A DNA stretch of 64,000 nt. It comes from a virus (Duplodnaviria; Heunggongvirae; Uroviricota; Caudoviricetes). A program made the position numbers and the translations under genes. A model generated the notes under the pieces. It saw only the letters and a list, made by a program, of their open reading frames with translations. It did not search any database and was not told where the DNA came from. The stretch lies in the IMG/VR virus record IMGVR_UViG_3300032245_001714. One strand, 5' to 3'. Below are positions 1,699-57,814 of the stretch, piece after piece (positions within the stretch are counted from its first letter, which is position 1; the number at the start of each line of letters is the position of its first letter).

Positions 1699-2238
1699 CT
1701 ATACATCTATCCCGGGGAAGGCCCTGAGGATAGCATCCACCATGACCTTCTTCTCCATCCTGTTGGCCTTAGCCGCAGATGCGCTGATCTTGGGGTTAGC
1801 CCTATAGGCAGGGCTGATTAGGTCCTCTAGGATAAACTCCCCTAAGGCCTGATCAAGCTTAATGAGGCTACATCCGGCGTCCCAGTCCTCCATGCCTACT
1901 CCCATCTCCGGTTTAGCCATCTTGTCGTGACGACCCGTAAAGATTTCAGTGGCCAGGTCCTCGCAGGCATCAGGGTCTATGTCTTCATATTCACCGTCGT
2001 AACCGTAGAGGTAGTCCGTGATGAGATCTTCCACCGCTCCGTCCTCTAGATTCAGCATCCAGAGCTCCCTGGCGTTGGGATTCTTAAAGAGCAGTGCCAT
2101 CCACCCGTTCATCCCGAGGGTGGTGAAGAGCTTGTCATTCTCCTCGAGCCCTCGGGCCTTCGTTGGCTCATAGTCCTCTGGGTACTTTGGACCACGGTGA
2201 TACTCGTTGATCTCTCTAAAGGTTTTAATGCGTCTCAT
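1699..2238 (-). CDS. hypothetical acidic protein (179 aa)
   Basis: Long ORF with a D/E-rich, coherent protein-like sequence. Confidence 0.55.
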   Translation of the reverse strand: MRRIKTFREINEYHRGPKYPEDYEPTKARGLEENDKLFTTLGMNGWMALLFKNPNARELWMLNLEDGAVEDLITDYLYGYDGEYEDIDPDACEDLATEIFTGRHDKMAKPEMGVGMEDWDAGCSLIKLDQALGEFILEDLISPAYRANPKISASAAKANRMEKKVMVDAILRAFPGIDV

Positions 2239-2248
2239 AGGCTATCGA

Positions 2249-2368
2249 TTAAAAAAACACCCAGACCAAAAAGCAAATGAGCTTGAGCGTCACATAGAGG
2301 ACTACTCCCATGACACCTCCAATGGCACCGCGGGTCAAAAGCATCAACAACTTGGGTAAGGGCTTCAT
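2249..2368 (-). CDS. small hydrophobic membrane protein (39 aa, read by hand)
   Basis: Manual translation: MKPLPKLLMLLTRGAIGGVMGVVLYVTLKLICFLVWVFF. The ATG is preceded by GATATATAGAGC. Confidence 0.4.
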   Translation of the reverse strand: MKPLPKLLMLLTRGAIGGVMGVVLYVTLKLICFLVWVFF

Positions 2369-2469
2369 GCTCTATATATCGAATCCCAGAGGGGGAGGTT
2401 TCGGGGTGGATCTCCCAGGAGGACCCGCCCACCAAATAGATGATACCCATACTGTTCTGTCTCTTATAG

Positions 2470-2537
2470 CTAGAGAGGAAGAGAAGCATAGGCATAGAGA
2501 TCATAGAGAAGAGAGTAGAGCGAGGCGAGGCGGGACT
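2470..2537 (+). repeat. GA polypurine tract
   Basis: About 65 nt of almost pure purines (tagagaggaagagaagcataggcatagagatcatagagaagagagtagagcgaggcgaggcggga) in a gene-free region. Confidence 0.6.
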
Positions 2538-2607
2538 GCTGGCGGATCTAAGAGGCTCTGAACGGGGCGAAAGCCACCCACGGTTCCGAGACCAGATCGG
2601 GGCGAAT

Positions 2608-2690
2608 CGGGAATCCCGGGGTATCTGGGGGAATTTCTGGAAATTTGTGGGAATTTGTGGGATTTCATGGGAACCGTGGGATCTGGTACC
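2608..2690. repeat. ~10-bp periodic array of degenerate TGGGAATTTG repeats (iteron-like)
   Basis: cgggaatcccgggg / ggggaatttctgg / aaatttgtggg / aatttgtggg / atttcatggg / aaccgtggg / atctgg, with a period of about one helical turn. Confidence 0.5.
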
Positions 2691-2940
2691 CCAGAGGGAT
2701 CTTGGGGGAGAAGCCCGGACCGAGGCGGTGGCCCGAATCGGGGAATCCGAGAAATCAGGGATTTTCACCCTGGGTGGAAGCTCATGCCCACAGAGGGGCT
2801 TCCATAAGGGCCTCTAAAACGCGAACCTGTGGAGGCTATCCCCCGGGACCTCTAAGTCTTGGCCGGGGGAACCTGTGGCATACTACCTTAGTAACATACT
2901 ATGTTTGGGGGACGGGGGTAAGGGTGGACCCTGGGTGGGC

Positions 2941-3351
2941 CTAGACCTTGCTCCAGGTGTAGTCCGCATTCAGGATCACGGAGTACAGGTGTGGCTTGCT
3001 CCACTGGGAGGGTGAGATGAGACTCATAAACCTTGAGCCATCCTCGCTCTGGTACAGATGGTAGCACTCTCCCACTATGGGCTCAAAGGAGCACTTGGCC
3101 GAGTAGACCTCCTGGTTGAGCTCGTACTCCTGCTGCAGCTCCTCTATCTGAAGGATGATCTCCTGGGCTCTTCTCTGTAGGGCTTTGTTCACCTTGTGTG
3201 AGGCTGCTCTGATAAATGGTGTGAGATCTGTGGGTTTGATCTGTGGTGCTCCTATGTGATGTGCGTGTGGCAGTAGGTTTGCCTTTAATGCCACTTTGTC
3301 TTTATGTGATGGTGTGCTCATGTGCTTTATGTATGCCTTATCTATCTTCAT
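2941..3351 (-). CDS. hypothetical protein (136 aa)
   Basis: ORF track entry; an ATACATACTAG-type upstream motif. Confidence 0.5.
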   Translation of the reverse strand: MKIDKAYIKHMSTPSHKDKVALKANLLPHAHHIGAPQIKPTDLTPFIRAASHKVNKALQRRAQEIILQIEELQQEYELNQEVYSAKCSFEPIVGECYHLYQSEDGSRFMSLISPSQWSKPHLYSVILNADYTWSKV

Positions 3352-3391
3352 GCCTATGAGGATGGGTATGGCTAGGGTTATAGCTAGTATG

Positions 3392-3432
3392 TATATTGGG
3401 ATAAGCTATTTGGTGGGCGGGCCCTCGTGGGG
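3392..3432. repeat. partial copy of the GC-rich dispersed repeat
   Basis: tatattgggataagctatttggtgggcgggccctcgtgggga shares the TGGTGGGCGGG..TGGGGA core with the copies at 3954, 4909 and 6083. Confidence 0.4.
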
Positions 3433-3556
3433 AGTAAGGCCCGAAAAGGCCCCAGAGGGATGCAGGTGCCATTTTGGAAACCTGGTCCAGGCGCGTAGGT
3501 GACTAGGACCACAAAAAAGCCTGGAGGTCTCCAGGCTGTATGTGATGTCGGTTCTC

Positions 3557-3949
3557 TTAGTGGTGTTTGGAGGCTATCCGATCCATGGCTTGGGCGAGCT
3601 TATAGTCTCTCTCTGTGATCACATCCCCTGCGTCATGGGTTCTGAGCCAGCACTGGACGGTCTTGAAGATGTTGGTCCACTTGGGGTGGTGATTCATTCG
3701 GTTGCACACCTCTGCGACTTCGTTCATAAATGACATAGCAACGTTGAAGTCTTTGAAATCGTATCTCTTATAGAGCGAGTTGTCTCTCTCTGTCCATCCT
3801 GCAGGAGCTTGGACTGGCATCTCCGTTTCTTTAACAGGCACACATCTAGGCACTCTCCTGCCTCCCTTCATCTTGGTGCCAATCTGTTTGTATCCAGACC
3901 AGCATGGGCCTTTGGCCTCGTCTATGTGGTAGGGTTGTATGTGTTTCAT
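3557..3949 (-). CDS. pterin-4a-carbinolamine dehydratase (PCD/DCoH) domain protein with N-terminal extension
   Basis: The C-terminal half, ...FMNEVAEVCNRMNHHPKWTNIFKTVQCWLRTHDAGDVITERDYKLAQAMD, matches the PCD signature (HHPEW..., TH, G-[IL]-[ST]-x-[RK]-D, LA). Starts MKHIQPY with the upstream motif GATATATAGAGC. Confidence 0.65.
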   Translation of the reverse strand: MKHIQPYHIDEAKGPCWSGYKQIGTKMKGGRRVPRCVPVKETEMPVQAPAGWTERDNSLYKRYDFKDFNVAMSFMNEVAEVCNRMNHHPKWTNIFKTVQCWLRTHDAGDVITERDYKLAQAMDRIASKHH

Positions 3950-3961
3950 GCTCTATATATC
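3950..3961 (-). promoter_or_regulatory. GATATATAGAGC start-proximal motif, minus strand, inside the GC-rich block
   Basis: Reverse complement: gatatatagagc followed by ATG (MKHIQPY). Confidence 0.4.
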
Positions 3962-3998
3962 ATTGGTTCTGGTGGGCGGGTCTCCCTGGGGATTCGAT
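3954..3998. repeat. GC-rich dispersed intergenic repeat, copy 1
   Basis: tatatatcattggttctggtgggcgggtctccctggggattcga. Confidence 0.55.
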
Positions 3999-4036
3999 CC
4001 CAAATGACTCCACATATGCTCTGTGATATATAGCTT

Positions 4037-4258
4037 ATGAACATAGATTTTCCAAAGGCCAAATTCTTGTCTAGGTTTGGCAACATCAAGGCCAGCAAGG
4101 AGGAATCCGACCGCATGTTTAGGCAGTTTCTCTGGGAGGAGGAGGAGAGGGAGCGAATGATGTTCACGAGGGAGGCGGAGCAAGCCGGTGGCGCTGGCTT
4201 AACTCAAGACTACATGGAATATGATTATATGATAGATGCAGCAAATTACGTAGACTAA
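4037..4258 (+). CDS. hypothetical protein (73 aa)
   Basis: The ATG is preceded by TGATATATAGCTT. Confidence 0.5.
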   Translation: MNIDFPKAKFLSRFGNIKASKEESDRMFRQFLWEEEERERMMFTREAEQAGGAGLTQDYMEYDYMIDAANYVD

Positions 4259-4274
4259 AAACAAAAAACATAAA

Positions 4275-4832
4275 ATGGGAATAACAACAAGAGAATTTGG
4301 TCCTTATGCTAAAGGCAGCAGGCTAACCACAGCCGAGATGGATGAGAACTTCAACTACCTATTAGAGTTGAATACAACCCTCTATGCTGGAACTTTTTTC
4401 GATACCACCACACAGCCTACCGGTGGCACGGGATCAGCAAACCAAGTGGCAATCAATTCAACACAGGCCAATAATGGTTTCTCACTAGCGAACAATACAA
4501 TAACGGTTACTAATGCTGGAACCTATTGTTTCATTGCCAACATGCAACTTTCATTTACTGGTGGATCCTCAAATCTTAATGTAACTGTATGGTATACTGT
4601 AGACGATGTAATTGTTCCTAACTCAGCATTTACATTCACCACATCATCAGCCCAAAATGACCAGACGCTAGCATCCATAACAGATACAATATCGTTAACA
4701 GCTGGCCAAACCCTAAAATTTTACTGGTGGTCTGGATCTGCAGGAATGAAACTTTTAGCAACCCCTGCAGCCTCCAATCCAACAAGACCCCTATCACCAT
4801 CTGTAAATTTGACTATATTTAACGTGGGGTAA
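4275..4832 (+). CDS. hypothetical Thr/Ser/Asn-rich, beta-rich protein (185 aa), possibly structural or fibre-like
   Basis: Composition resembles phage fibre or adhesin domains; no motif recognised. Confidence 0.5.
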   Translation: MGITTREFGPYAKGSRLTTAEMDENFNYLLELNTTLYAGTFFDTTTQPTGGTGSANQVAINSTQANNGFSLANNTITVTNAGTYCFIANMQLSFTGGSSNLNVTVWYTVDDVIVPNSAFTFTTSSAQNDQTLASITDTISLTAGQTLKFYWWSGSAGMKLLATPAASNPTRPLSPSVNLTIFNVG

Positions 4833-13953: not shown

Positions 13954-14055
13954 GGTCAGGTGGTGTAATGGCAACATGGGGTTCGACCCCCCAATCAACC
14001 CAGTAGTGGGACGATACAGAAAGGCAAGATACAGGTTCGAATCCTGTCCTGACCG
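13954..14055 (+). tRNA. tRNA-like gene, atypical (~102 nt)
   Basis: Acceptor GGTCAGG/CCTGACC, D arm GTGT-AATGGCA-ACAT and T arm ACAGG-TTCGAAT-CCTGT, but about 51 nt lie between the D and T arms. One hairpin there, GGGG-TTCGACC-CCCC, could carry a CGA anticodon, which would make it Ser-like. Confidence 0.5.
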
Positions 14056-24010: not shown

Positions 24011-24688
24011 ATGGATTACCAAAGACACTACGATAGATTAATAGAAACTAGGTCTAATCTCAATAGAAAGAAAGGATCTGGTGTCTATTACGAGCTTCAT
24101 CATATAAATCCTCTTTGCATGGGAGGGGATAATTCAGAAGGCAATTTAATATTACTAACAGCCAGAGAACATTTTATAGCGCATTTACTTTTATTTAGGG
24201 TTTATCCTAATAGCATAGGTCTTTCTTTCGCTTTCTGGTTAATGTGCAATTCGGACAGTAAATATAAATGCGGATCTAGATTATATTCAGAAATGAGAAG
24301 TGATATATCCGAAAAATTTAAGGGGGTTAGTAAAAGTGAATCAACTAAAAAGAAAATGAGGAAACCAAAAAGCGAATCCCATAAAGTAAATATTTCTTTA
24401 GGACTCCTAGGAATTAAATTTACGGAATCCCATAGAATGAACATTTCTAAATCTGCTAAGGGATTAGTACTTTCGGATACTGTAAAATTAAAGATGTCAG
24501 AATCTAGGAAGGGCGATAAAAATTCTTTTTATGGGAAATCCCACAGTCCTGAGACCAGGGAAAGATTAAAGGAATCTTGGAAAAACAGAGAAGAATCTAG
24601 CTGTCCTCACTGTAATAAGTCCAGTAAAAATATGGGGAATCTTAAAAGATTCCATTTTGACAATTGCAACAAAAAACCCGGAATCTAG
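24011..24688 (+). CDS. freestanding HNH homing endonuclease with NUMOD3-like repeats
   Basis: HNH core YYELHHINPLCMGGDNSEGNLILLTAREHFIAHLL, followed by three SES[RTK]K.... repeats (SESTKKKMRK, TESHRMNISKSAKG, SESRKGDKNSFYGKSHSPETRERLKES). Confidence 0.7.
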   Translation: MDYQRHYDRLIETRSNLNRKKGSGVYYELHHINPLCMGGDNSEGNLILLTAREHFIAHLLLFRVYPNSIGLSFAFWLMCNSDSKYKCGSRLYSEMRSDISEKFKGVSKSESTKKKMRKPKSESHKVNISLGLLGIKFTESHRMNISKSAKGLVLSDTVKLKMSESRKGDKNSFYGKSHSPETRERLKESWKNREESSCPHCNKSSKNMGNLKRFHFDNCNKKPGI

Positions 24689-24815: not shown

Positions 24816-25130
24816 TTAAAAATTATCGTCTTCTATCAGATCGTTGAAAAGATCGCGGAAGCATCCTCTTAGCTCCTTTTCATTTTCCGGTAGATTATCA
24901 TACACAATACCTGGATGTTCTTTTGAGGCAAGCTCAAAACACTTACCCACTATAGAACTACCGTATTTACCGGTTAATTCCTGCATCTTCTCTTTTTTTA
25001 TAACAAGGTAGTTCATGCTTAGATTTTTGTAAATTACTTCTCTTGCTTTTACGTATATAACCAAACTCACTCCAAAAATAAGAATAACGATAGCTATAGC
25101 TCTCATTACGGCATCTAAATACCAAATCAT
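24816..25130 (-). CDS. hypothetical protein with an N-terminal TM segment (104 aa)
   Basis: ORF track entry. Confidence 0.45.
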   Translation of the reverse strand: MIWYLDAVMRAIAIVILIFGVSLVIYVKAREVIYKNLSMNYLVIKKEKMQELTGKYGSSIVGKCFELASKEHPGIVYDNLPENEKELRGCFRDLFNDLIEDDNF

Positions 25131-25882
25131 GACCTAACTATGGGTATTAAAATTTTAGTGACAAAAGCTTCCATATCGTCTAAAGAGATGAGATCAACAG
25201 AGTCCTCGTCGGTGTGGCACCTTGACCAAGATCTATTATCTAAGAACCCTCTCTGATTAGATATAAAAGAAACACCCTCAGTTAAAAGAGGTAACGGGTT
25301 TAGTACCGTGCTATCTATTCCTGCCATTCTAAAAGCAGTCGTGTCGCTAACAGGTGTCTTGACCACCGTGGGGTTAAACATCTCCAATATTTTATCATTC
25401 AGATTTCCAGGGTTGTCTCCTATTATAAAATTTTCACCGCCCATCCCAGATAGCTCCAAATTTATAACCCCTTCTATTTTTCCATAAACCCCTTGGTTGA
25501 TCTGCTCTGCTAACCTAGTTGCCCCTATGAGCCCAACCTCCTCTCCGTCAGTTAAAACAACGGTTGCCTCTGGCACCAGTGACTTAAGATAAATTGCATT
25601 TATAACAGAAGCTGAATTGTCATTTGCATTGTCAGAATCCGGATTCACTATATCATGGTGAGCTGTGATGATATACTTGGAAGTCCCAGGTAGAATTACA
25701 TTATAGAAGTTGTTTTTTCCTGAAAAACTAAAAGCGTCAATGATCTTTTTTATTCCAAATTTTTCTAGCATTGATAGAATAAAAATAACCCTAGGGGTTG
25801 GCACCCTACCGTTTTCCGTAGCGTTTCCTTTATTCCTAGCTTCTTGGCAGAATGGGTATATTGCCTCTAATATATTATCCAT
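25127..25882 (-). CDS. M28-family zinc peptidase-like protein
   Basis: Metal-binding spacing HHD...D...EE...D...H as in TAHHDIV, LTDGEEVGLIG and CHTDED. Confidence 0.6.
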   Translation of the reverse strand: MDNILEAIYPFCQEARNKGNATENGRVPTPRVIFILSMLEKFGIKKIIDAFSFSGKNNFYNVILPGTSKYIITAHHDIVNPDSDNANDNSASVINAIYLKSLVPEATVVLTDGEEVGLIGATRLAEQINQGVYGKIEGVINLELSGMGGENFIIGDNPGNLNDKILEMFNPTVVKTPVSDTTAFRMAGIDSTVLNPLPLLTEGVSFISNQRGFLDNRSWSRCHTDEDSVDLISLDDMEAFVTKILIPIVRS

Positions 25883-25884
25883 AA

Positions 25885-26307
25885 CTAAATGTTTTTAATT
25901 TCTCTTTCGATCTCTCTTGATCTAATCCTTTCTCTTTTGTCATATTCCTTTCTTCCTTTAGCTAGAGAAATCTTTACCTTTATTAAATTCCTATCTGATA
26001 AAAAAATTAGGGTTGGAACTATAGTGACCCCTTTATCTAAACCCTTTTGAAGTTTTGAAATCTCTTTCTTTTTTAGTAAGAGTTTTTTATTTCGAAGTGG
26101 ATCGTGGTTCCAGTCCTTAGAATCTGCTGAGATGTGCATGCCTTTTAGCCACACCTCGCCATCTTGTATAAAGCAAAAAGCATCCACCAGAGAAACCCTT
26201 GATTCTCTGATGGCCTTAACTTCAGATCCATAGAGGCATATACCTGCGTTAAATTCCTCTATAAAGCTGTAATCAAAATTAGCTTTTCTGTTTTTTATCG
26301 GATTCAT
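25885..26307 (-). CDS. smpB: SsrA-binding protein SmpB homolog
   Basis: Colinear with E. coli SmpB: EEFNAGICLYGSEVKAIR, HDPLRNKKLLLKKKEI, KVKISLAKGRKEYDKRE. Confidence 0.75.
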   Translation of the reverse strand: MNPIKNRKANFDYSFIEEFNAGICLYGSEVKAIRESRVSLVDAFCFIQDGEVWLKGMHISADSKDWNHDPLRNKKLLLKKKEISKLQKGLDKGVTIVPTLIFLSDRNLIKVKISLAKGRKEYDKRERIRSREIEREIKNI

Positions 26308-26313
26308 TCTGAA

Positions 26314-26991
26314 TTATTTTTTCTTCTTCTTAAGAACCACCTCATCGATGATTCCGTATTTAACCGCTTCATCAGCACTCAGCCAAAAATCTCTTGTTGC
26401 GTCCTTCATGACCTGCTCTGGCTTCTTTCCACAGTAACCTCCTAGAAGATCGAAAAGAATTTTGTTAACCTCTTCCCATTCTTTCATGTCAATTTTAGCG
26501 TCTTGAATGTTCCCCCTGAATCCTCCACTTGATTGGTGTAACATCACCTTGCTGAATCTAAGTGAGCTACGCTTTCCTTTAGTACCTGCTCCAAGTAAAA
26601 CTGATCCCATTGAAGCTGCCATTCCGGTGTTAACTGTTCTGATGTCTGCAGAAATGTATTCCATTACATCAACCATAGATAAACCTGATTTTACTGAACC
26701 CCCTGGAGAGTCTATGTGCATGGTGATATCTCTATCATCAACAGAGTCTAAAAACATTAACTGTGCTTGGACAACTGTTGACATGCTATCATCAACCTCA
26801 CCCGCTACCCATAGAATGCGGTCACGCATTAATCGAGAAAAGATGTCCATTTGGGTTACTCTCATTTCTCTTTCTTCTAGGATGTAAGGAGTCATTGAAG
26901 ACTCTATCTTTTTTTCGAAATAGTTGATTCGGGAAGAAGAAATCCCGTATTCACTTCTGGCGTACTTTTCAAATTCTGATCGATAATTCAT
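26314..26991 (-). CDS. clpP: ClpP-family serine protease (S14) with an N-terminal extension
   Basis: IDSPGGSV, catalytic Ser in GMAASMGS, His in MLHQSSGG. Confidence 0.8.
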   Translation of the reverse strand: MNYRSEFEKYARSEYGISSSRINYFEKKIESSMTPYILEEREMRVTQMDIFSRLMRDRILWVAGEVDDSMSTVVQAQLMFLDSVDDRDITMHIDSPGGSVKSGLSMVDVMEYISADIRTVNTGMAASMGSVLLGAGTKGKRSSLRFSKVMLHQSSGGFRGNIQDAKIDMKEWEEVNKILFDLLGGYCGKKPEQVMKDATRDFWLSADEAVKYGIIDEVVLKKKKK

Positions 26992-26995
26992 ATTG

Positions 26996-27379
26996 CTATT
27001 TTATTTTTTCCCATTTCATTTCTTCGAATGCCCAGACAGGTAAACATTTAATTTTAACCTCTGTTGTCCATTCAAGCTCTACTATTATAAGGTCTTTCCA
27101 TTTGGGTGAAAATTCACCCATATTATTAGACATGTTTTTCGTATAAATTTCGCCCTCCCCCTTCCAAATCATAGCGGGTGTTGCCATTATCATTGGACCT
27201 CCTGGAGGGTCTATGAGGAGCAAATTTCCGGCAGGATCCCTTGAAACCTTCACAAATTGGCTGAGCTGACCTCCACTCATAATGAACTCCAGTTCGGAAA
27301 TCCTTGTGAATTTAAGACAATCACCATATCGGTTTACGTATATTTCCTCCTCTTTGATCCATTTGCCATTTAATCTCAT
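26996..27379 (-). CDS. hypothetical protein (127 aa)
   Basis: ORF track entry; a TATATAT-containing motif upstream. Confidence 0.5.
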   Translation of the reverse strand: MRLNGKWIKEEEIYVNRYGDCLKFTRISELEFIMSGGQLSQFVKVSRDPAGNLLLIDPPGGPMIMATPAMIWKGEGEIYTKNMSNNMGEFSPKWKDLIIVELEWTTEVKIKCLPVWAFEEMKWEKIK

Positions 27380-27452
27380 ACGGATGCAAATATATAGAAA
27401 GATTCCGAAATAAAAAAATATTTAGGGATAAATATATCATAAAACACATAAG

Positions 27453-40812: not shown

Positions 40813-41907
40813 TTATCCTGCTTTAAGTAAAAAGTTATTAGAAATGGCTTTAAAAGATATTGATTTATCTTTATTCCTAATAACCAATCCTTCTCTTTCT
40901 GTCTGTTCGTTCAACCTAGATTTACCCTCTGCTTGAATTAAAACCTCCTCTATGGTCGAAGGAAGTTTATAATCGTAATAAATCACCGGAACGAGCTCTA
41001 ATGGCTTATCGTCAACATTTATCTTTTCTAGTATTCTAATCATATCATCAAGTCCCAAATACTCCCGGGTGTCTATGTTGAACATGTTGAATATTTTAAC
41101 CGTTTGACCTTTAATCTTATATGGATTTCCCTGTATCCCTTCGCCGATGAGTTCTCCCTGAATCGCGTAGTTACCTTCAAGAGTTCCCAATTTCTCTTCG
41201 ATGAAAAGTTCTCTGGCAACTTTCCAAAACGTATTTTCCTCTGTTTCTAATAGCTCTAAATTTCTTGAACAAACTCCAAACACACCATTATTAAAATAAT
41301 ATGTTGCAGAGCTTCCGTCAAGTTTTTCTGTTACGTAATAGTGCTTATCACGCATGCTATCGAATTCTTTAGTCATGTTCTGGATTCTCTCCTCGTCGGT
41401 CTTTCTGATAAATCCTGGGAAATAGCCTTTTACCTTTCCTGCTAATGAAGCTGGGATCGGAGGTTCATATTTTAATATCCCAAGATAGTCAGTAAGATCC
41501 ATCCCCTCCTCTATAATCATTGCATCATCATAAGGACCTAATTGTAACTGATTTCCCCAAGGCTGCTCTGAAATCCCTACTACCATTTCTTCAAACTCTT
41601 TACTGTTTAAAACTGAAAGAGGAAGACAAAGTCCCTGAGAGATTTGTCCTCGGAGTTTTATTGTCTTTAATCTAAATCCCTCTTTATCTCCCATTTTTTT
41701 AAACGAAGATTTTCTTAGAAATTCAAACTCTTCCCTCACAGGTAAGAAAGAATCTATCTCGAAATAGACACAAAGGTCTCCTTCGTTAAACTCCCCTTTC
41801 TTTGAGACAACCTTCCATGAATTCACGGTTACTATTTCTATTGCGTCCGCTCCCCCGATAGGAAGAATTTTTCCAATTCTCTGTATCGAAGCTAATTTTC
41901 TTTCCAT
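40813..41907 (-). CDS. ATP-dependent RNA ligase, DRB0094/Rnl5-like
   Basis: KxDG adenylation motif TEKLDGSS; N-terminus RKLASIQRIGKILPIGGADAIEIVTVNSWKVVSKKGEFNEGDLCVYFEIDSFLP, typical of this ligase family. Confidence 0.55.
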   Translation of the reverse strand: MERKLASIQRIGKILPIGGADAIEIVTVNSWKVVSKKGEFNEGDLCVYFEIDSFLPVREEFEFLRKSSFKKMGDKEGFRLKTIKLRGQISQGLCLPLSVLNSKEFEEMVVGISEQPWGNQLQLGPYDDAMIIEEGMDLTDYLGILKYEPPIPASLAGKVKGYFPGFIRKTDEERIQNMTKEFDSMRDKHYYVTEKLDGSSATYYFNNGVFGVCSRNLELLETEENTFWKVARELFIEEKLGTLEGNYAIQGELIGEGIQGNPYKIKGQTVKIFNMFNIDTREYLGLDDMIRILEKINVDDKPLELVPVIYYDYKLPSTIEEVLIQAEGKSRLNEQTEREGLVIRNKDKSISFKAISNNFLLKAG

Positions 41908-49782: not shown

Positions 49783-50922
49783 TTAATCTTTTTTAATCCA
49801 TTTTGAATCCACTGGTATTTCTTCCTCTCTATTCCAAAATGGCTTTTGATACTTTGGTTTTACTATCTTCCAGATTATATGATCGTATTTCTTTCCGTCC
49901 CACATAGCAAAACATATGGATCTTATGCTGGGCTCAACATTACAAAATTCTAGATGTTCAGCAAATTCTTTCTTAGTAGGCTCATTCTCTCGATCCCAAT
50001 ATCTTCCATATCTAAAATACTCATAGATCTTTTCCGCTCTTTCCTCGACTTTACATCGGTGATATTCTAGACTGTGTATTGTTTTCTTAACCCACTTGTC
50101 AAATTCGTCAGGAACTCTTTCTAGAAATTCTTCAATGTTTCTTCCTTCTTTTAAAAGCTCCCAGATGTCGACATTCGAGAAATTGGTCAATAGTCGATGC
50201 AATCTAACATAATCTTCGCCTTTGATCTTCATTCTAAGTCCGGATTTGAATTTAACAACAAATCCCTCAGATTCTCCGTCTATCATTTTCTTAAGCTTCT
50301 TATAATCGTCTATCCCATCGTACTTCTTAACCATCTTAAATCCCAAGTTGTTATATAAATTTACGAATCTAATACCCTCTAAATGTATGCTATTATGGTG
50401 GATTCTAAGTTCATAACCATCTTTGTTATCAATTACCCCAAGAAGTATTAAGTCCTCATAGTCATAGTTGCACACGATCCTGTTTTCGGGATAGATGATC
50501 TCGAACAGATAGGTAAATCCTGGGATCAGTCTCTCATATCTGTATTTTTTTAGGATTTCTCTACCCCTAATTGCCTGCTCAGATGCAAAAGATCCTCTGG
50601 TCGCTAAGTGCCACTCATCGGCATAATGGAAAAGTATGCCTAGAGACCCGTCCAATTTTTCGAAAACCTCGAATTCCTCATTAGGTATTTCCTCTGGCTT
50701 ATGCTCCTCCATGTTAAAAAACTTGGGGAATGGTTTAGCAATAACATTTCCCTCCCGGTCTAAAACAGTGCCTCTCATATTTAAAGTGATCTCGTCCCAA
50801 GACTCCGTGAACTGACATTCCCTTGAATAATTATAGATATCAAGCGGTAATGTCGGGTGTGGATTCCTTTCTAAAAGACCCCTCTGGATATAGGCGTTAA
50901 GAGTGTTTAAATCGTATTTCAT
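49783..50922 (-). CDS. RNA ligase, T4 Rnl1-like
   Basis: Motif I EKLDGSL, compared with T4 RnlA KEDGSL; 379 aa against T4 Rnl1 at 374 aa. Confidence 0.6.
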   Translation of the reverse strand: MKYDLNTLNAYIQRGLLERNPHPTLPLDIYNYSRECQFTESWDEITLNMRGTVLDREGNVIAKPFPKFFNMEEHKPEEIPNEEFEVFEKLDGSLGILFHYADEWHLATRGSFASEQAIRGREILKKYRYERLIPGFTYLFEIIYPENRIVCNYDYEDLILLGVIDNKDGYELRIHHNSIHLEGIRFVNLYNNLGFKMVKKYDGIDDYKKLKKMIDGESEGFVVKFKSGLRMKIKGEDYVRLHRLLTNFSNVDIWELLKEGRNIEEFLERVPDEFDKWVKKTIHSLEYHRCKVEERAEKIYEYFRYGRYWDRENEPTKKEFAEHLEFCNVEPSIRSICFAMWDGKKYDHIIWKIVKPKYQKPFWNREEEIPVDSKWIKKD

Positions 50923-51088: not shown

Positions 51089-52639
51089 ATGGGTAAGAAA
51101 ATTTACAACTTTGATGACTTCGTTAACGAGTCATATGTTAGCGAGGGATTATTTTCCTGGTTCAAGAAAAACGTAATGGACCGACTAACTGGATGGACAA
51201 AAAGCTTTTATCAGGCTTTAGAAAATGGCCTAATCAAAACAATTCCAAGTGGACCTAAAAAAGGTAAGCCTGTAGCTATGCTATTTGTTCCTGAAAATGG
51301 ACCTATAGATAAGCAAATAGCAGAATTCTACGGAACAAAAGCTAATGAATCCCAGGAGATTGAAGAAGCTGTGGTTCCCTTAGAATACACTGAAGAAGAT
51401 CAAAGCGTTAGAAATATCAATGCTGAAGATCTTATGGAAGAGATAATGGAGCTTTACGAAGCTAAAGTTTCCGGTGGAAGAGCAAAACCCATATTTATAT
51501 ACGGAGCACCTGGTATCGGTAAAACCCAGATAGTTGGACAAGCCGCTACATCTTTAGGCGTTCCTCTTTTAAATCTTGACCTACAATTTATGGGACCTGA
51601 AGATTTCATCGGGGTTCCTGTTCAAGTGGACATAAAAAAACCGGAATTCTCTGAAGTAGAGGATGAAACAACTGGTGAGAAAACGATGGTGGTAAAAGAT
51701 TACGGTGCTGGTTTTACAAGATCAAATCCTCCTTCTATTTTGCCTAGGGATAATGGAGCTAATGGTAAAGGTGGTATTATATTCATGGACGAAGCAAATA
51801 GAGCAAACCCTATTGTTTTAAGATCTCTAATGCAATTCGTTCAAATGGGTAGAATTGGAGATTATCAGCTTCCTACAAAATGGATTATAGTAGCTGCTGG
51901 TAATAGACCTGCAGAAGCAGAAGTTGCAGAATTTGACTTTGCGTTTGCTGATCGTTTCACAATTGTGAATTACGTTCCTGAATTGGGAATAGATCCAAGC
52001 GGAGCAATCACGGGGGGTTGGGCTAAATGGGCTTCTTCATCAGGAAAGATCCTTCCTGAATTAATTTACTTCCTTGCTGATAACAGAGAGTTATTCCACA
52101 GATTGGACACAGAAAAGAAAGTGCTAAACTACCCAACTCCTAGATCTTGGGCAGATGGAGCATTAGTTCTGAATGACTATATGAGAAACAAGGGACTTAG
52201 CTCTTGGAGAGACGTTCCGGCTCAAAAGATTAAGAACATCTTCTTCGATCAGGTTGGACCTCAAGCAGCTGGAAAATTTGCTGACTTCCTAGACATTCTA
52301 AGAAAAGCATCTGATTCTGATATCGAAGAAATGCTTACTGATCCAGATGGTGCTAGAATTATTCCTGAATTCAAGAAGGAGAAAAGATTCTTATTTGGTC
52401 TTATCCAAACACTTATAAATAAAGTACCAGACGGTGATGCACAGAAGCTATTGAGCATAGTTAAGTACATTAGCAGATATGGTCAATATGAAGTTCTTAC
52501 GTGGCTTCTAAAGAGAATTTACGACAAATTCCCAGAATTCGGAAAATTTGAGGCTTCTTACAAGGATGAGCCAGGATGGGAATACAGAAAAGAGGCAGTT
52601 GAGATAGTTAGACAAGGAAAGAAAGAACAAGGACTATAA
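51089..52639 (+). CDS. MoxR/CbbQ-like AAA+ ATPase
   Basis: GAPGIGKTQ Walker A, IIFMDEANRA Walker B, AAGNRP sensor; N-terminus MGKKIYNFDDFVNES. Confidence 0.75.
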   Translation: MGKKIYNFDDFVNESYVSEGLFSWFKKNVMDRLTGWTKSFYQALENGLIKTIPSGPKKGKPVAMLFVPENGPIDKQIAEFYGTKANESQEIEEAVVPLEYTEEDQSVRNINAEDLMEEIMELYEAKVSGGRAKPIFIYGAPGIGKTQIVGQAATSLGVPLLNLDLQFMGPEDFIGVPVQVDIKKPEFSEVEDETTGEKTMVVKDYGAGFTRSNPPSILPRDNGANGKGGIIFMDEANRANPIVLRSLMQFVQMGRIGDYQLPTKWIIVAAGNRPAEAEVAEFDFAFADRFTIVNYVPELGIDPSGAITGGWAKWASSSGKILPELIYFLADNRELFHRLDTEKKVLNYPTPRSWADGALVLNDYMRNKGLSSWRDVPAQKIKNIFFDQVGPQAAGKFADFLDILRKASDSDIEEMLTDPDGARIIPEFKKEKRFLFGLIQTLINKVPDGDAQKLLSIVKYISRYGQYEVLTWLLKRIYDKFPEFGKFEASYKDEPGWEYRKEAVEIVRQGKKEQGL

Positions 52640-52660
52640 AACACTAAAATCACTAAACTG

Positions 52661-53611
52661 ATGGAAAGATCATTTAAAAATAAATCCCTCATCGAGAGAG
52701 CAATAACGAACTTTGACGAGTTCGTAAGAATTAAGGTGGTAGAATCAGTGGATAACCCCGAAGATTACGCTCAGGAAGATTACACCGAGGTGAACAGAAA
52801 AATCAGAAAGATTATAATCTGGCTTAGTATCAATAAAGGATTTTATGCTGAACTAATGGCAAACCTAGATATTTATGGATCTGATGAAATTAATCCTAAA
52901 ACAATGTGCACAAACGGGATAGAAATTATATTCCATCCTGAATTTGTGACTAAGCAGAAAGAGGAGGCTTTAAGACTTGTTCTTGCACACGAGCTTCTAC
53001 ACTGTATAGGTAAGCACCAAGAAAGAAGAGGGACTAGAGACCCTAAAGGTTGGAATATAGCATGTGATTATGCTATCAATCCTATACTTGAGGGAGAGCC
53101 GGGGTTCGAATGGCCAGTTGACGAGACGGGTCAGAAAATGGGACTTTACGAGGAAAAATACGAAGGCATGTCAGCAGAAGATATTTACGATCTTCTAATA
53201 GAGGAAGGAGTTTTAAACCCTGACGGAAAGCCTAAATCTTCAAAAATGGCAAAAAGTGCAGAACTTGGTGAAGTTGTTGACGAGGATTCTGAAGTACCTG
53301 GACCTGGTCAGGGTATGGATATTCAGGTTTCAGACGACGATGAACCAAACGGCGGACAAAACGGTAGCGGAGACGATGGCGATGAAGGTGATGAAGAAGG
53401 AGATAAACCAGGAAACGGTAGCGGTGATGAGGGAGACGAAGAAGGAGAGGGAGATGGACCGGGAAATAGTCCAGGAAATAAACCTTCGGATAAGCCTGGC
53501 AATAACCAACAACAATCCCAACTCCCTAGGGTGGGACAAAAGGTTAGGTTAAGTGACGGAAGAGAAGCTGTTATCAAAAAGGTTTATCCTAACGGAGATA
53601 TAGACGTTTAA
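52661..53611 (+). CDS. DUF2201_N-like putative metallopeptidase (HExxH) with an acidic Gly/Asp/Glu-rich repetitive tail
   Basis: LAHELLHCIGKH; tail NGSGDDGDEGDEEGDKPGNGSGDEGDEEGEGDGPGN. Confidence 0.55.
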   Translation: MERSFKNKSLIERAITNFDEFVRIKVVESVDNPEDYAQEDYTEVNRKIRKIIIWLSINKGFYAELMANLDIYGSDEINPKTMCTNGIEIIFHPEFVTKQKEEALRLVLAHELLHCIGKHQERRGTRDPKGWNIACDYAINPILEGEPGFEWPVDETGQKMGLYEEKYEGMSAEDIYDLLIEEGVLNPDGKPKSSKMAKSAELGEVVDEDSEVPGPGQGMDIQVSDDDEPNGGQNGSGDDGDEGDEEGDKPGNGSGDEGDEEGEGDGPGNSPGNKPSDKPGNNQQQSQLPRVGQKVRLSDGREAVIKKVYPNGDIDV

Positions 53612-53628
53612 AATTTAAAACTCAAAAC

Positions 53629-54567
53629 ATGTTTGTAAAAAAAGGAGAATATGCTGTAATAGCTCAAGCCCAAGATTTATCTGGAGGCCAGAAATCACCA
53701 GATGACGGTAAAAAAGGTGGAAATGTTGCTATATCTAAAAAAACAATACAGATGGAGGATATTCCTCTAGTTGGACAGGAAACACCCGGAGCTAAAACAA
53801 CTTCTGATTTAGGTGGTAAACAAATAAAAACTAAGGTTTCTGAGTATACCGGTAAAAAGAAAAGCAGAATACATAAAGGTAAAATAGATTGGGATTCTGC
53901 AGCAATGAGAGCTTTAGGTAGAGCCACATCTTCTGTTTCTTCAAAGATTAAAAGATTGATCGATACTCTATCGTCTACGAAACCTTTGGTTAACTGGAAA
54001 ATGGAGCTTAAGAAATTTTTCGATAGCACATTTAATAAACAAGATTGGGTTCTTCCGAATAAAAGATTTGTTGCTAGAGGAGAATATCTATACGGAAGAA
54101 AGAATATAGGATCTGACACATTAAAAACGATAGTGGCAGCAGTGGATACGTCTGGCTCAATATCTCAGGAACAATCAAGAACATTCGTAACTGAAGTTAT
54201 GCACTTGGTTAAAATGTTTGATGCTGATAAAACCTACATCATTTACTGTAGTGATGATATAGATAATGTTGATATCATTAAGAAAGGAGGTCAGCCGGAT
54301 TTCTCTTTATGGGCAACAACAGGTGGTAATGCTAAAGGGTTTATCCCTCCTTTTCAATACGTTGAAAAGAACAATATCAAACCATCAGTTTTCATATATC
54401 TAACAGATACTGGCGGTGAAATGCCAGATCCTAAAAAATATGGAATTCCTAAGTACATTAAAAAAGTGATTTGGTTTATATGTTCTCCAACTATGTATAA
54501 TCCTCCATCATTCGGTAAAATACTATTCGCTCCGGCGTCAGCAATTGCACCATGGAAAAAGAAATAA
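53629..54567 (+). CDS. VWA-domain protein
   Basis: MIDAS motif VAAVDTSGSIS. Confidence 0.6.
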   Translation: MFVKKGEYAVIAQAQDLSGGQKSPDDGKKGGNVAISKKTIQMEDIPLVGQETPGAKTTSDLGGKQIKTKVSEYTGKKKSRIHKGKIDWDSAAMRALGRATSSVSSKIKRLIDTLSSTKPLVNWKMELKKFFDSTFNKQDWVLPNKRFVARGEYLYGRKNIGSDTLKTIVAAVDTSGSISQEQSRTFVTEVMHLVKMFDADKTYIIYCSDDIDNVDIIKKGGQPDFSLWATTGGNAKGFIPPFQYVEKNNIKPSVFIYLTDTGGEMPDPKKYGIPKYIKKVIWFICSPTMYNPPSFGKILFAPASAIAPWKKK

Positions 54568-57016: not shown

Positions 57017-57113
57017 TAGTCAGGGTCGGATTCGAACCGAGTACCGTTCAAGACGGATTAAGCAACCATTTAACTGGATTCGGGAACCATCCCCTCATTA
57101 CGCCCACCTGACT
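57017..57113 (-). tRNA. tRNA-like gene E1, atypical (97 nt)
   Basis: Reverse complement: AGTCAGG-TG-GGCG... with T arm TCGG-TTCGAAT-CCGA, acceptor CCCTGACT and discriminator A. A second degenerate T-arm-like motif lies inside. Adjacent upstream is a further fragment with CGG-TTCGAGT-CCG. Confidence 0.4.
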
Positions 57114-57183
57114 CGGACTCGAACCGTTGAAAACACCACCTTTCGGTGCAACAAAACCCTGACCCCAGAGTTGTTATTGTCAG

Positions 57184-57290
57184 TAGCCAGGACAGGATTC
57201 GAACCTGTGAGCCCTCGTGTATGGGTATCATACATACCACACCCAAGGACTTTATGTATGCTCAGCGTTAAGCCACTCCGCCACCTGACT
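57184..57290 (-). tRNA. tRNA-like gene E2, atypical (107 nt)
   Basis: Reverse complement: AGTCAGG-TG-GCGGAGTGGCTTAACGC (Leu/Ser-type D arm), a 47-nt internally paired insert, T arm ACAGG-TTCGAAT-CCTGT, acceptor CCTGGCT, discriminator A. Confidence 0.5.
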
Positions 57291-57506
57291 ATGTTACCCC
57301 ACCTTGAGATTACTGGTGAGTAGATATATCGGTTTTCTTTCTTTCAATAAACCTGTGGGTCTTATCCTCTTAAAATTAGTCAAACTACTTGGAGCCTCTG
57401 TTACCTAGCTTTAACCCAAAGAGACTGGCGTTTAAGGATGTCCAGTCCAATACCCTACCCATTGTTTAAGTCTTGGATTAAAGACTCTGAGTACCTCTTA
57501 CTCATT

Positions 57507-57621
57507 GTAGTCAGGACCCGATTCGAACGGGTACGATGTACTTCTCTTACATCTCGGAATTAATGGCCTCACGAATTACTTCGTTAGCTTACTTGTTGCG
57601 TCTACCCTTCCGCCACCTGAC
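57507..57621 (-). tRNA. tRNA-like gene E3, atypical (115 nt)
   Basis: Reverse complement: AGTCAGG-TG-GCGGAAGGGTAGACGC (tRNA-Leu-like D arm), about 60 nt with two hairpins, T arm ACCCG-TTCGAAT-CGGGT, acceptor CCTGACT, discriminator A. Confidence 0.5.
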
Positions 57622-57627
57622 TATTTT

Positions 57628-57721: not shown

Positions 57722-57814
57722 TAGTCAGGACAGGATTCGAACCTGTGACCTTTGTCTTTTGGTTCCGCCGTAAGCGGATTACTCACCAACACGCTACCAT
57801 TGCGCCACCTGACT
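57722..57814 (-). tRNA. tRNA-like gene E4, atypical (93 nt)
   Basis: Reverse complement: AGTCAGG-TG-GCGC-AATGGTA-GCGT; stem TTGGT/ACCAA encloses 21 nt containing a TCCGC-TTACG-GCGGA hairpin; T arm ACAGG-TTCGAAT-CCTGT; acceptor CCTGACT; discriminator A. Confidence 0.5.

What the first reader, a model, noticed from the sequence alone, without database searches (positions are those of the whole stretch)
25127..26991. Phage-encoded SmpB homolog next to a ClpP-like protease and an M28 peptidase; no tmRNA in the window
25885..26307 is a clear SmpB, conserved throughout its length against bacterial SmpB. SmpB acts only with tmRNA. No tmRNA-like sequence was recognised here, but the window does encode a family of tRNA-like RNAs lacking canonical anticodon arms. 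In tmRNA, SmpB substitutes for the anticodon stem-loop of the tRNA-like domain. A viral SmpB could reprogramme trans-translation, rescue ribosomes stalled on damaged or leaderless phage mRNAs, or partner with the atypical tRNA-like RNAs. The adjacent ClpP could be either the prohead protease or a degrader of tagged peptides.
Basis: partly seen in the sequence, partly recalled or inferred. Interest (0 to 1): 0.7.

Follow-up and report, generated by a model that had tools for sequence, protein, structure and literature searches.

The report
Jumbo-phage SmpB gene beside ClpP
A large phage of Bacteroidota-type bacteria carries an intact, selected copy of the ribosome-rescue protein SmpB in one operon with a true ClpP protease; SmpB genes are already known in huge phages, and nothing ties this one to the odd tRNA-like RNAs nearby.

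Summary
25885-26307(-) is a full-length SmpB (Pfam 1e-48). It sits between a genuine ClpP (26314-26991) and an M28-family peptidase (25127-25882), in a five-gene cluster with 2-6 nt gaps or a 4-nt overlap. SmpB keeps the DKR motif, the aromatic residue before it and a C-terminal tail of normal bacterial length. dN/dS is 0.03 against a 93%-identical relative.

It belongs to a phage-only SmpB clade nested in Bacteroidota SmpB. At least 91 IMG/VR viral contigs encode relatives. Huge-phage SmpB and tmRNA were reported in 2020.

No tmRNA was found by ARAGORN or Rfam in the window or in 10 kb on each side (82 kb). Related phages do carry canonical tmRNAs, next to SmpB in 4 of 80 loci, so one may lie elsewhere in the ~330-kb genome.

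The tRNA-like RNAs are real and belong to a widespread phage family built on a tRNA-Leu-type scaffold with a hypervariable core. They lack the G3:U70 alanine identity pair, keep a normal D stem and are not significantly enriched near SmpB.

Best reading: canonical trans-translation using host (or distal phage) tmRNA, coupled to ClpP proteolysis. This is a new member of a known kind, of modest interest.

The parts
26996..27379 (-). orf127, first gene of the cluster. A small beta-rich protein of unknown function; the family lies 0-3 kb upstream of ClpP in this phage lineage.
26314..26991 (-). ClpP proteolytic subunit of cellular type, with a ~30-residue N-terminal extension.
   Evidence: PF00574 E 3.2e-57. 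Residues 34-222 align to 5-194 of H. pylori ClpP; the Ser (GMAASMG), His (MLHQSSGG) and Asp (TRDFW) motifs are kept. dN/dS 0.021 against L009.
25885..26307 (-). SmpB (SsrA-binding protein), 140 aa, complete with its C-terminal tail.
   Evidence: PF01668 E 1.1e-48. PDB alignments. Invariant residues and the D123-K124-R125 motif. dN/dS 0.030. The exact protein occurs on 19 public contigs.
25127..25882 (-). Divergent M28-family metallopeptidase, probably an aminopeptidase. Present in close relatives but absent in L190-type relatives.
   Evidence: PF04389 E 3.3e-10. 2-nt gap after the SmpB stop. dN/dS 0.043. Absent in L160, L162 and L190. No PDB relative by sequence.
24816..25130 (-). orf104, last gene of the cluster. 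Its start overlaps the M28 stop by 4 nt, and it has a hydrophobic N-terminal segment.
   Evidence: ORF and translation. No Pfam hit. Conserved in L001-L010. dN/dS 0.14.
27387..27394 (-). Candidate Bacteroidota-type -7 promoter box (TATATTTG), with 7 nt between it and the orf127 ATG, in the 73-nt divergent intergenic region.
   Evidence: Sequence read and pattern hit. Weak evidence: the pattern TANNTTTG is not enriched in the window (67 observed, 68 expected).

Best explanation
The gene encodes a working SmpB. During infection it takes part in ordinary trans-translation: it binds an alanine-charged canonical tmRNA and enters ribosomes stalled on truncated mRNAs. The tmRNA is most likely the Bacteroidota host's own, or possibly a phage copy elsewhere in the ~330-kb genome. 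SmpB is co-transcribed, and probably translationally coupled, with a cellular-type ClpP. ClpP, working with a host unfoldase, would degrade the tagged fragments, and the M28 peptidase may trim the peptides. The likely net effect is to keep ribosomes free and recycle amino acids while host or phage mRNA is being cut.

Shown: gene identity, intactness, purifying selection, the operon layout and its conservation, and origin from Bacteroidota SmpB.

Inferred: the RNA partner, the link between rescue and ClpP proteolysis, and the benefit to the phage.
For: - Full-length SmpB carrying the elements needed for function. The DKR motif and the preceding aromatic residue (KEYDKR here, KQHDKR in E. coli) and the N-terminal aromatic Y13 are kept. 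Their roles are described in PMC8012679.
- The tail has 15 residues after DKR, within the range of Bacteroidota SmpBs in the same alignment (15-19).
- Strong purifying selection: dN/dS is 0.030 at dS ~1.4 against the 93%-identical relative. ClpP is 0.021 and M28 is 0.043.
- The 140-147 aa SmpBs form one clade nested in Bacteroidota SmpB.
- The ClpP-SmpB pair is kept in L009 (93% SmpB identity) and L013 (64%). It is also kept in L160, L162 and L190, where ClpP is 92-93% identical but SmpB only 52%. In L190 the ClpP stop and SmpB start overlap.
- Related phages pair SmpB with canonical G3:U70 tmRNAs. A tmRNA is directly adjacent in 4 of 80 loci and within 6 kb in a fifth. Members of the same phage group carry a tmRNA elsewhere (L299 and L520).
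- ClpP aligns end to end with cellular ClpP, with the catalytic motifs intact, and does not sit in a head-gene module.
- Jumbo-phage ClpP has been read as host-directed (PMC7824862). The amino-acid recycling idea for phage tmRNA was published in PMC9004378.
Against: - No tmRNA was found in 82 kb of this genome, and the host is unknown, so the RNA partner is inferred.
- No ClpX or ClpA is encoded in the window; the only AAA+ protein is MoxR-like.
- In more distant relatives SmpB is not next to ClpP: it lies 6-7 kb away in L011 and L014, and there is none within 10 kb in L012 and most IMG/VR loci. The coupling is therefore specific to one lineage.
- M28 is dispensable.
- Sequence alone cannot distinguish boosting rescue from competing with host SmpB.
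Confidence: 0.65

Rival explanations
1. The phage brings a complete private system. A canonical phage tmRNA lies outside the 82 kb examined, and phage SmpB works mainly with it, possibly adding a phage-specific tag.
For: - Canonical tmRNAs lie beside or near SmpB in L172, L182, L184, L195 and L187.
- A freshwater phage tmRNA lineage sharing an 18-nt motif occurs in 29 IMG/VR stretches and 105 metagenome stretches, with long unusual tags.
- Two contigs of the same phage group carry one: L299, and Ga0068876_10000169, which appears to be the same contig as L263 (same length, 51,317 bp). Their endolysins are 72-76% identical to this phage's.
- Only 1 of 132 such tmRNA loci has SmpB nearby, so distance from SmpB is normal.
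Against: - None was found in the window plus flanks.
- None was found within 10 kb of SmpB in the nearest relatives: L009, L012, L013, L135, L190.
- None was found within 10 kb of the endolysin in L220-L223.
- The motif scan did not hit the contigs of this phage or of its 93% relative. Whether those samples are in that collection is unknown.
Confidence: 0.25
2. SmpB partners with the phage's anticodon-less tRNA-like RNAs. SmpB would fill the space of the missing anticodon arm and deliver them to stalled ribosomes as tag-less mini-tmRNAs.
For: - The RNAs are real and lack an anticodon arm.
- Their variable hairpins sit where tmRNA's body emerges (own knowledge of the tRNA-like domain-SmpB structure, not tested here).
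- tRNA-likes lie 1.3-3.8 kb from SmpB on the same strand in one sub-clade, and 2.2 kb away in L011.
- LeuRS needs A73 and the D-loop architecture but not the anticodon arm (PMC2377443), so the scaffold could plausibly be charged.
Against: - The pair is U3:A70, not G3:U70, in all members.
- They have a canonical D stem.
- 119 of 120 tRNA-like loci show no SmpB in the fetched stretch.
- tRNA-likes occur within 10 kb in 11 of 80 SmpB loci against 4 of 80 control loci from the same phage group: one-sided p=0.05, rising to 0.43 when the one sub-clade is collapsed.
- L182 has a canonical tmRNA beside SmpB and also tRNA-likes.
- The phage SmpB keeps the same conserved surface as bacterial SmpBs.
Confidence: 0.04
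3. The phage SmpB is a competitor. It titrates host tmRNA or occupies stalled ribosomes unproductively, shutting down host quality control or a tmRNA-dependent defence.
For: - A tRNA-like-domain-only tmRNA from phage DS6A inhibits tmRNA function, perhaps by titrating SmpB (PMC4131195 and PMC11915505). This shows that phages may interfere with the pathway.
- The phage clade lacks the 8-12 residue N-terminal extension of Bacteroidota SmpB and has a central loop 2 residues shorter.
Against: All elements whose loss makes SmpB inactive are retained, namely the DKR motif and the tail. A decoy would be expected to lose them. Co-selection with an active-looking ClpP fits productive tagging better.
Confidence: 0.05
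4. The ClpP homolog is the prohead maturation protease, and its adjacency to SmpB is incidental.
For: PHROGs places it in families annotated 'head maturation protease' (phrog_94, E 5e-36).
Against: - Similarity to cellular ClpP is higher and covers the full length (3.9e-47).
- None of the proteins scanned in the 20 kb around it was recognised as a portal, scaffold or capsid protein. The annotated neighbours are SmpB, M28, CHAP, SLT and an AAA_28 protein.
- The stop/start coupling to SmpB is conserved.
Confidence: 0.08

Closest known systems
Bacterial SmpB-tmRNA trans-translation (E. coli, T. thermophilus, Bacteroidota)
   Same: - Same protein family over its full length.
- Same DKR tail motif, aromatic decoding-centre residues and central loop.
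- About 50% identity to Bacteroidia SmpB.
   Different: - It is encoded by a phage.
- It lacks the 8-12 residue N-terminal extension, and its central loop is 2 residues shorter.
- No cognate tmRNA gene was found in 82 kb.
- The gene sits in an operon with ClpP.
SmpB and tmRNA genes of huge phages (Al-Shayeb et al. 2020, PMC7162821; Lak megaphages of Prevotella)
   Same: - A large phage of a Bacteroidota-type host carrying SmpB among translation-related genes.
- Lak and LR7565xx phages encode SmpB 45-50% identical to this one.
- The paper's supplementary GenBank files list 'SsrA-binding protein' genes whose best hits are Bacteroidetes proteins.
   Different: - This is a different phage lineage: only a 72% nucleotide match over ClpP to LR745206.1.
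- The ClpP-SmpB coupling was not found in the passages of that paper that were searched.
Phage-encoded tmRNAs (mycobacteriophage Bxz1 group, Bacillus phage G, OM43 phage Melnitz; PMC4131195, PMC9004378)
   Same: A phage intervening in ribosome rescue. The proposed purposes are the same: keeping the hijacked translation machinery running, or tagging proteins for amino-acid recycling.
   Different: Those phages carry the RNA component, whereas this window carries the protein component. About 2.3% of isolate phage genomes have a tmRNA.
ClpP of jumbo phages (Iyer et al. 2021, PMC7824862)
   Same: A cellular-type ClpP with a patchy distribution in jumbo phages, interpreted as acting on host proteins rather than in virion maturation.
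   Different: Here it is coupled to SmpB and, in the closest relatives, to an M28 peptidase.

Membership tests
SmpB (PF01668, SsrA-binding protein) | Full-length match to the family profile | tested here: met
   E 1.1e-48, 165 bits against a cut-off of 27, profile positions 2-138 of 143. 15 PDB SmpB sequences at E<=2.6e-14.
SmpB (PF01668, SsrA-binding protein) | C-terminal tail with the DKR motif and a preceding aromatic residue that stacks on the decoding centre | tested here: met
   ...KGRKEYDKRERIRSREIEREIKNI. D123-K124-R125 are invariant across the 19 aligned sequences, and Y stands at the position of E. coli H136. The role of these residues is taken from PMC8012679.
SmpB (PF01668, SsrA-binding protein) | [quoted passage not shown] | tested here: met
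   The loop is present, 2 residues shorter than in Bacteroidia homologs. The criterion is from PMC4131195.
SmpB (PF01668, SsrA-binding protein) | A cognate tmRNA available, encoded in the same genome or by the host | tested here: inconclusive
   None was found in the window or in 10 kb on each side, by ARAGORN and Rfam. The rest of the ~330-kb genome and the host could not be read.
SmpB (PF01668, SsrA-binding protein) | Binds tmRNA and supports peptide tagging | not testable with these tools
   Needs biochemistry or genetics.
ClpP (peptidase S14, PF00574) | Full-length profile match and the Ser-His-Asp catalytic motifs | tested here: met
   E 3.2e-57. GMAASMG, MLHQSSGG and TRDFW align to the catalytic motifs of H. 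pylori ClpP.
ClpP (peptidase S14, PF00574) | A partner AAA+ unfoldase (ClpX, ClpA or ClpC) | tested here: inconclusive
   Only the larger ORFs of the window were scanned, and the only AAA+ protein found among them is MoxR-like (51089-52639). A host unfoldase would have to be used.
Phage head-maturation protease (ClpP-like) | Located in the head module next to portal, scaffold or capsid genes | tested here: not met
   The annotated neighbours are orf127, SmpB, M28, CHAP, SLT and AAA_28. There is a PHROG hit to 'head maturation protease' families, but it is weaker than the match to cellular ClpP.
Peptidase M28 | Profile match above the curated cut-off, plus metal-binding residues | tested here: inconclusive
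   40.4 bits against 21.3. Motifs of the expected type (HHD, NDNS, GEE, CHTDED) are visible in the translation but were not aligned to a solved M28, because there was no PDB hit.
tmRNA or tmRNA-like partner RNA (applied to the tRNA-like RNAs of the window) | G3:U70 pair in the acceptor stem (alanine identity) | tested here: not met
   The acceptor is AGUCAGG/CCUGACU (or GGUCAGG/CCUGACC), so the pair is U3:A70 in the window copies and in the ~150 distinct members collected. True phage tmRNAs in relatives start GGGG... and end ...CUCC.
tmRNA or tmRNA-like partner RNA (applied to the tRNA-like RNAs of the window) | tRNA-like domain without a D stem, body replacing the anticodon arm, tag reading frame | tested here: not met
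   A canonical D stem and loop are present. The insert is only 20-130 nt and hypervariable. ARAGORN calls none of them tmRNA.
tmRNA or tmRNA-like partner RNA (applied to the tRNA-like RNAs of the window) | Consistent co-occurrence with SmpB | tested here: inconclusive
   11 of 80 SmpB loci against 4 of 80 control loci; one-sided p 0.05, or 0.43 after collapsing one sub-clade. 1 of 120 in the reverse direction. Only ~10-kb stretches could be compared.

The most novel reading that the evidence does not exclude
The phage SmpB may have a second client: the phage's own tRNA-Leu-type scaffold RNAs. These have an invariant acceptor with A73, a tRNA-Leu-type D arm and T arm, and a hypervariable 20-130 nt core in place of the anticodon arm. 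Charged by LeuRS, which does not need the anticodon arm, and completed by SmpB, they would enter empty A sites as tag-less rescue RNAs or as ribosome-targeted effectors. This would be a new class of SmpB-dependent RNA in a widespread group of freshwater jumbo phages.
Probability: 0.04. Interest if true: 0.85.

Novelty: new member of a known kind. Interest (0 to 1): 0.3.

Why it matters
Phage-encoded translation factors show which host processes limit phage growth. Here SmpB is selected and is translationally coupled to ClpP across divergent alleles. That argues that ribosome rescue and disposal of the tagged products are handled as one unit during infection by an abundant group of freshwater jumbo phages: 486 IMG/VR contigs share the nearby endolysin at 71% identity or more. 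The case is testable: does the phage SmpB use host tmRNA, and does it raise rescue capacity when mRNA is being destroyed? The gene class itself is already on record for huge phages, so the main value is as a well-documented example and as a pointer to the unexplained RNA genes nearby.

Tried and rejected
- **Walking along the source genome to find a tmRNA.** One step each way worked, reaching window -9.4 kb to +72.7 kb with nothing found. One look-up found no record.
- **An 18-nt motif shared by two phage tmRNAs.** It defined a phage tmRNA lineage but did not hit this phage's contigs or those of its 93% relative. This is weak evidence, because the content of the collection is unknown.
- **Single-sequence IMG/VR scan for SmpB.** It found nothing. 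The alignment-based scan was needed.
- **orf127 as an SspB- or ClpS-like adaptor.** The second was good (pLDDT 82) but had no significant structural match. No Pfam hit across 21 members. Context of a distant member was uninformative. The afdb50 library was unavailable.
- **Bacteroidota promoter motif as evidence for host and operon.** TANNTTTG is not enriched in the window, and the longer -33/-7 pattern occurs at the chance rate.
- **Cultured-phage search for the tRNA-like scaffold.** Only single-end matches to ordinary tRNA-Leu and tRNA-Gln genes were found.
- **Rfam on the GC-rich stretch at 2200-4300.** Nothing credible.
Full report
**Observation.** The minus strand between 27379 and 24816 carries five co-directional ORFs separated by 2-6 nt or overlapping by 4 nt: orf127, ClpP, SmpB, M28 and orf104.
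- SmpB (25885-26307, 140 aa) matches PF01668 at E 1.1e-48 over profile positions 2-138 of 143.
- ClpP (26314-26991) matches PF00574 at 3.2e-57.
- The 251-aa protein matches Peptidase_M28 at 3.3e-10, above the curated cut-off.
- ARAGORN finds no tmRNA in the 64-kb window. Rfam finds none at gathering score or at E<=5.

**Is the SmpB intact?**
- Against solved SmpBs the protein aligns from residue 4-5 to 138, including the tail (7ljp 2.8e-35; A. aeolicus 1p6v; T. thermophilus 1j1h).
They include Y13 and the D123-K124-R125 motif. A tyrosine stands where E. coli has H136.
- The DKR motif and the aromatic residues that stack on G530 and A1493 are the features reported as critical for accommodation of tmRNA-SmpB (PMC8012679).
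- Fifteen residues follow DKR, the same as in one Bacteroidota homolog in the alignment and 2-4 fewer than in others. The tail is not truncated.
- The phage clade differs from its bacterial neighbours only in lacking an 8-12 residue N-terminal extension and in a central loop 2 residues shorter.
- Against the 93%-identical homolog on a 332,679-bp contig (L009), dN/dS is 0.030 at dS ~1.4. ClpP gives 0.021 and M28 gives 0.043.
- The identical protein is on 19 public contigs from several samples.

This rules out a recent pseudogenised capture.

**Origin and distribution.**
- The closest database proteins are 140-147 aa SmpBs on contigs of up to 359 kb. Bacteroidia SmpBs follow at about 50% identity.
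- Neighbour-joining trees place all the short SmpBs in one clade nested among Bacteroidota sequences.
- An alignment-based scan of IMG/VR found at least 91 viral contigs with relatives.
- tblastn finds SmpB in Lak megaphages and other huge phages at 45-50% identity.
- Al-Shayeb et al. 2020 already listed tmRNA and SmpB among huge-phage translation genes. Their supplementary GenBank files contain 'SsrA-binding protein' genes with Bacteroidetes best hits.
- The endolysin just beyond the right edge of the window has relatives at 71-82% identity on 486 IMG/VR contigs, some of 348-373 kb. The window therefore belongs to an abundant jumbo-phage group.

**Context.**
- ClpP-SmpB-M28 is conserved in L009 (93% SmpB identity) and L013 (64%).
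- In L160, L162 and L190, ClpP is 92-93% identical to the window's but the adjacent SmpB is only 52% identical. M28 is absent there. In L190 the ClpP stop overlaps the SmpB start. The pair has thus been kept through an allele replacement, which argues for selection on the pairing.
- In more distant relatives ClpP lies 6-7 kb away (L011, L014) or is not within 10 kb (L012 and most IMG/VR loci).
- The ClpP aligns end to end with cellular ClpPs (3.9e-47 to 2zl0, 2.2e-44 to 1tyf), including the N-terminal region and the Ser, His and Asp motifs.
- Its annotated neighbours are not head genes. PHROGs files it under 'head maturation protease' families, but more weakly than it matches cellular ClpP.
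- Iyer et al. 2021 read jumbo-phage ClpP as host-directed.
- orf127 belongs to a 21-member family that stays within 0-3 kb upstream of ClpP in this lineage. A confident model (pLDDT 82) has no significant structural neighbour, so its role is open.

**Where is the tmRNA?**
- One step of walking each way extended the examined stretch to 82 kb. ARAGORN and Rfam still find no tmRNA.
- Five of 80 IMG/VR SmpB loci have a canonical tmRNA within 10 kb, four of them directly adjacent. All have GGGG...CUCC acceptor strands.
- L299, from the same phage group (endolysin 72% identical), has a canonical tmRNA with the tag ANVDYSTEYYAVAA.
- An 18-nt motif shared by two phage tmRNAs occurs in 29 IMG/VR stretches and 105 metagenome stretches. 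ARAGORN calls a tmRNA in 58 of the 132 distinct loci, with long unusual tags.
- Only one of those 132 loci has SmpB in the fetched stretch, so phage tmRNA and SmpB genes are usually not neighbours.
- None of those hits is on this phage's contigs or those of its 93% relative, but the coverage of the collection is unknown.

I put about 25% on a phage tmRNA elsewhere in this genome. Otherwise the host tmRNA is the partner.

**The tRNA-like RNAs.**
- The window has five copies sharing the acceptor stem AGUCAGG/CCUGACU (GGUCAGG/CCUGACC in the 14-kb copy), the discriminator A (G in the 14-kb copy), a normal D arm and the T arm ACAGGUUCGAAUCCUGU or a close variant. Each has 30-60 nt of hairpins in place of the anticodon arm. 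There is also a shorter sixth element.
- The ~150 distinct members are 70-181 nt long, with a near-invariant scaffold and a hypervariable core.
- The 5' part of the consensus scaffold is identical to annotated enterobacterial tRNA-Leu genes.

For the SmpB hypothesis the relevant tests are negative or inconclusive:
- The pair is U3:A70, not G3:U70, throughout.
- A D stem is present.
- One of 120 tRNA-like loci contains SmpB.
- Eleven of 80 SmpB loci contain a tRNA-like, against 4 of 80 control loci from the same phage group. One-sided p is 0.05. Seven of the 11 belong to one sub-clade, and collapsing it gives p 0.43.
- L182 carries both tRNA-likes and a canonical tmRNA beside SmpB.

The hypothesis is not excluded. 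LeuRS does not need the anticodon arm (PMC2377443), and in L011 and L144 the RNA cluster sits 1.3-2.2 kb from SmpB. I give it about 4%.

**Verdict.** This is a functional phage SmpB of Bacteroidota ancestry, co-expressed with a true ClpP. It most likely acts in ordinary trans-translation with the host's tmRNA, or a distal phage tmRNA, to clear ribosomes and feed truncated products to proteolysis. The class is already known in huge phages. The conserved ClpP-SmpB coupling is a modest new detail. The tRNA-like family and the other RNA genes around it are the more unusual things in this window, but they are a separate matter.

Noticed in passing
window 13954-14055(+), 57722-57814(-), 57508-57622(-), 57184-57290(-), 57017-57113(-); loci L015-L134: A widespread phage family of tRNA-like RNAs. 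The scaffold is near-invariant: acceptor AGUCAGG/CCUGACU with A73, a D arm whose consensus is identical to tRNA-Leu genes, and T arm ACAGGUUCGAAUCCUGU. The core is hypervariable (20-130 nt) and replaces the anticodon arm. There are ~150 distinct members on at least 120 IMG/VR contigs, often several per tRNA cluster. None was found in cultured phages. It looks like a natural tRNA scaffold carrying variable cargo; the function is unknown.
   Followed up: partly
window 57291-57507(-); L011 12400-12636: A conserved ~215-nt non-coding element that ends 0-3 nt before the 5' end of a tRNA or tRNA-like gene in most of the 12 loci where it was found (nhmmer). RNase P cleavage would then define its 3' end. 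It is 75% identical between the window and L011. No Rfam family matches.
   Followed up: partly
L144 8400-10000 (IMGVR_UViG_3300034272_001354): In a relative, SmpB is preceded on the same strand by an RNA gene cluster: a tRNA-like scaffold RNA, a YrlA-like (Y RNA-like) hit at 40 bits (below gathering score), a tRNA, and a GOLLD RNA (RF02032, 306 bits, E 2e-88). Each appears to have its own TAtcTTTG promoter box.
   Followed up: partly
window 2400-2950: A GC-rich stretch (55-59% against ~36% elsewhere) with no convincing ORF and with G-rich direct repeats (gggaatttgtgggaatttgtggga...). No Rfam match. It could be a structured RNA, an origin or a packaging site.
   Followed up: partly
window 24011-24688(+): An HNH/NUMOD3 homing-endonuclease gene just downstream of the operon. 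It is full-length, shortened or absent among otherwise near-identical contigs (L001-L007), as expected of a mobile insertion.
   Followed up: partly
window 40813-41907(-) and 49783-50922(-): Two RNA ligases, one Rnl2/PHA02142-type and one T4 Rnl1-type, in the same window as the tRNA-like cluster. Relatives add 2H-phosphoesterase and HAD genes near SmpB. This suggests an RNA-damage-repair theme alongside ribosome rescue.
   Followed up: no
L160, L162, L190 (e.g. L190 9318-10426): In-place replacement of the SmpB allele: ClpP is 92-93% identical to the window's but the adjacent SmpB only 52%, and M28 is missing.
   Followed up: yes
window 57114-57160(-): Directly upstream of the fourth tRNA-like gene lies a partial copy, GGGGUCAGGG...CGGUUCGAGUCCG. 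It has a 5' acceptor strand and a T-arm-like hairpin but no 3' acceptor strand of its own. It may be a rearranged or permuted unit.
   Followed up: no
L420-L551 (e.g. L299 13103-13448): A lineage of phage tmRNAs in mostly freshwater metagenomes that shares the motif GTTCTTTGAGATGATGCA and encodes long tags such as DVELSTMTFEDAMAFVGADYAVAA and ANVDYSTEYYAVAA.
   Followed up: partly
window 51089-54567(+): A MoxR-like AAA+ ATPase followed by two genes that carry DUF2201_N and DUF2201 in the matching locus L217. This three-gene module is unrelated to the finding.
   Followed up: no
L009 20219-20251(-): A near-threshold hit to the DUF805b RNA motif (34.5 bits against a gathering score of 35.6) in the 93% relative.
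   Followed up: no
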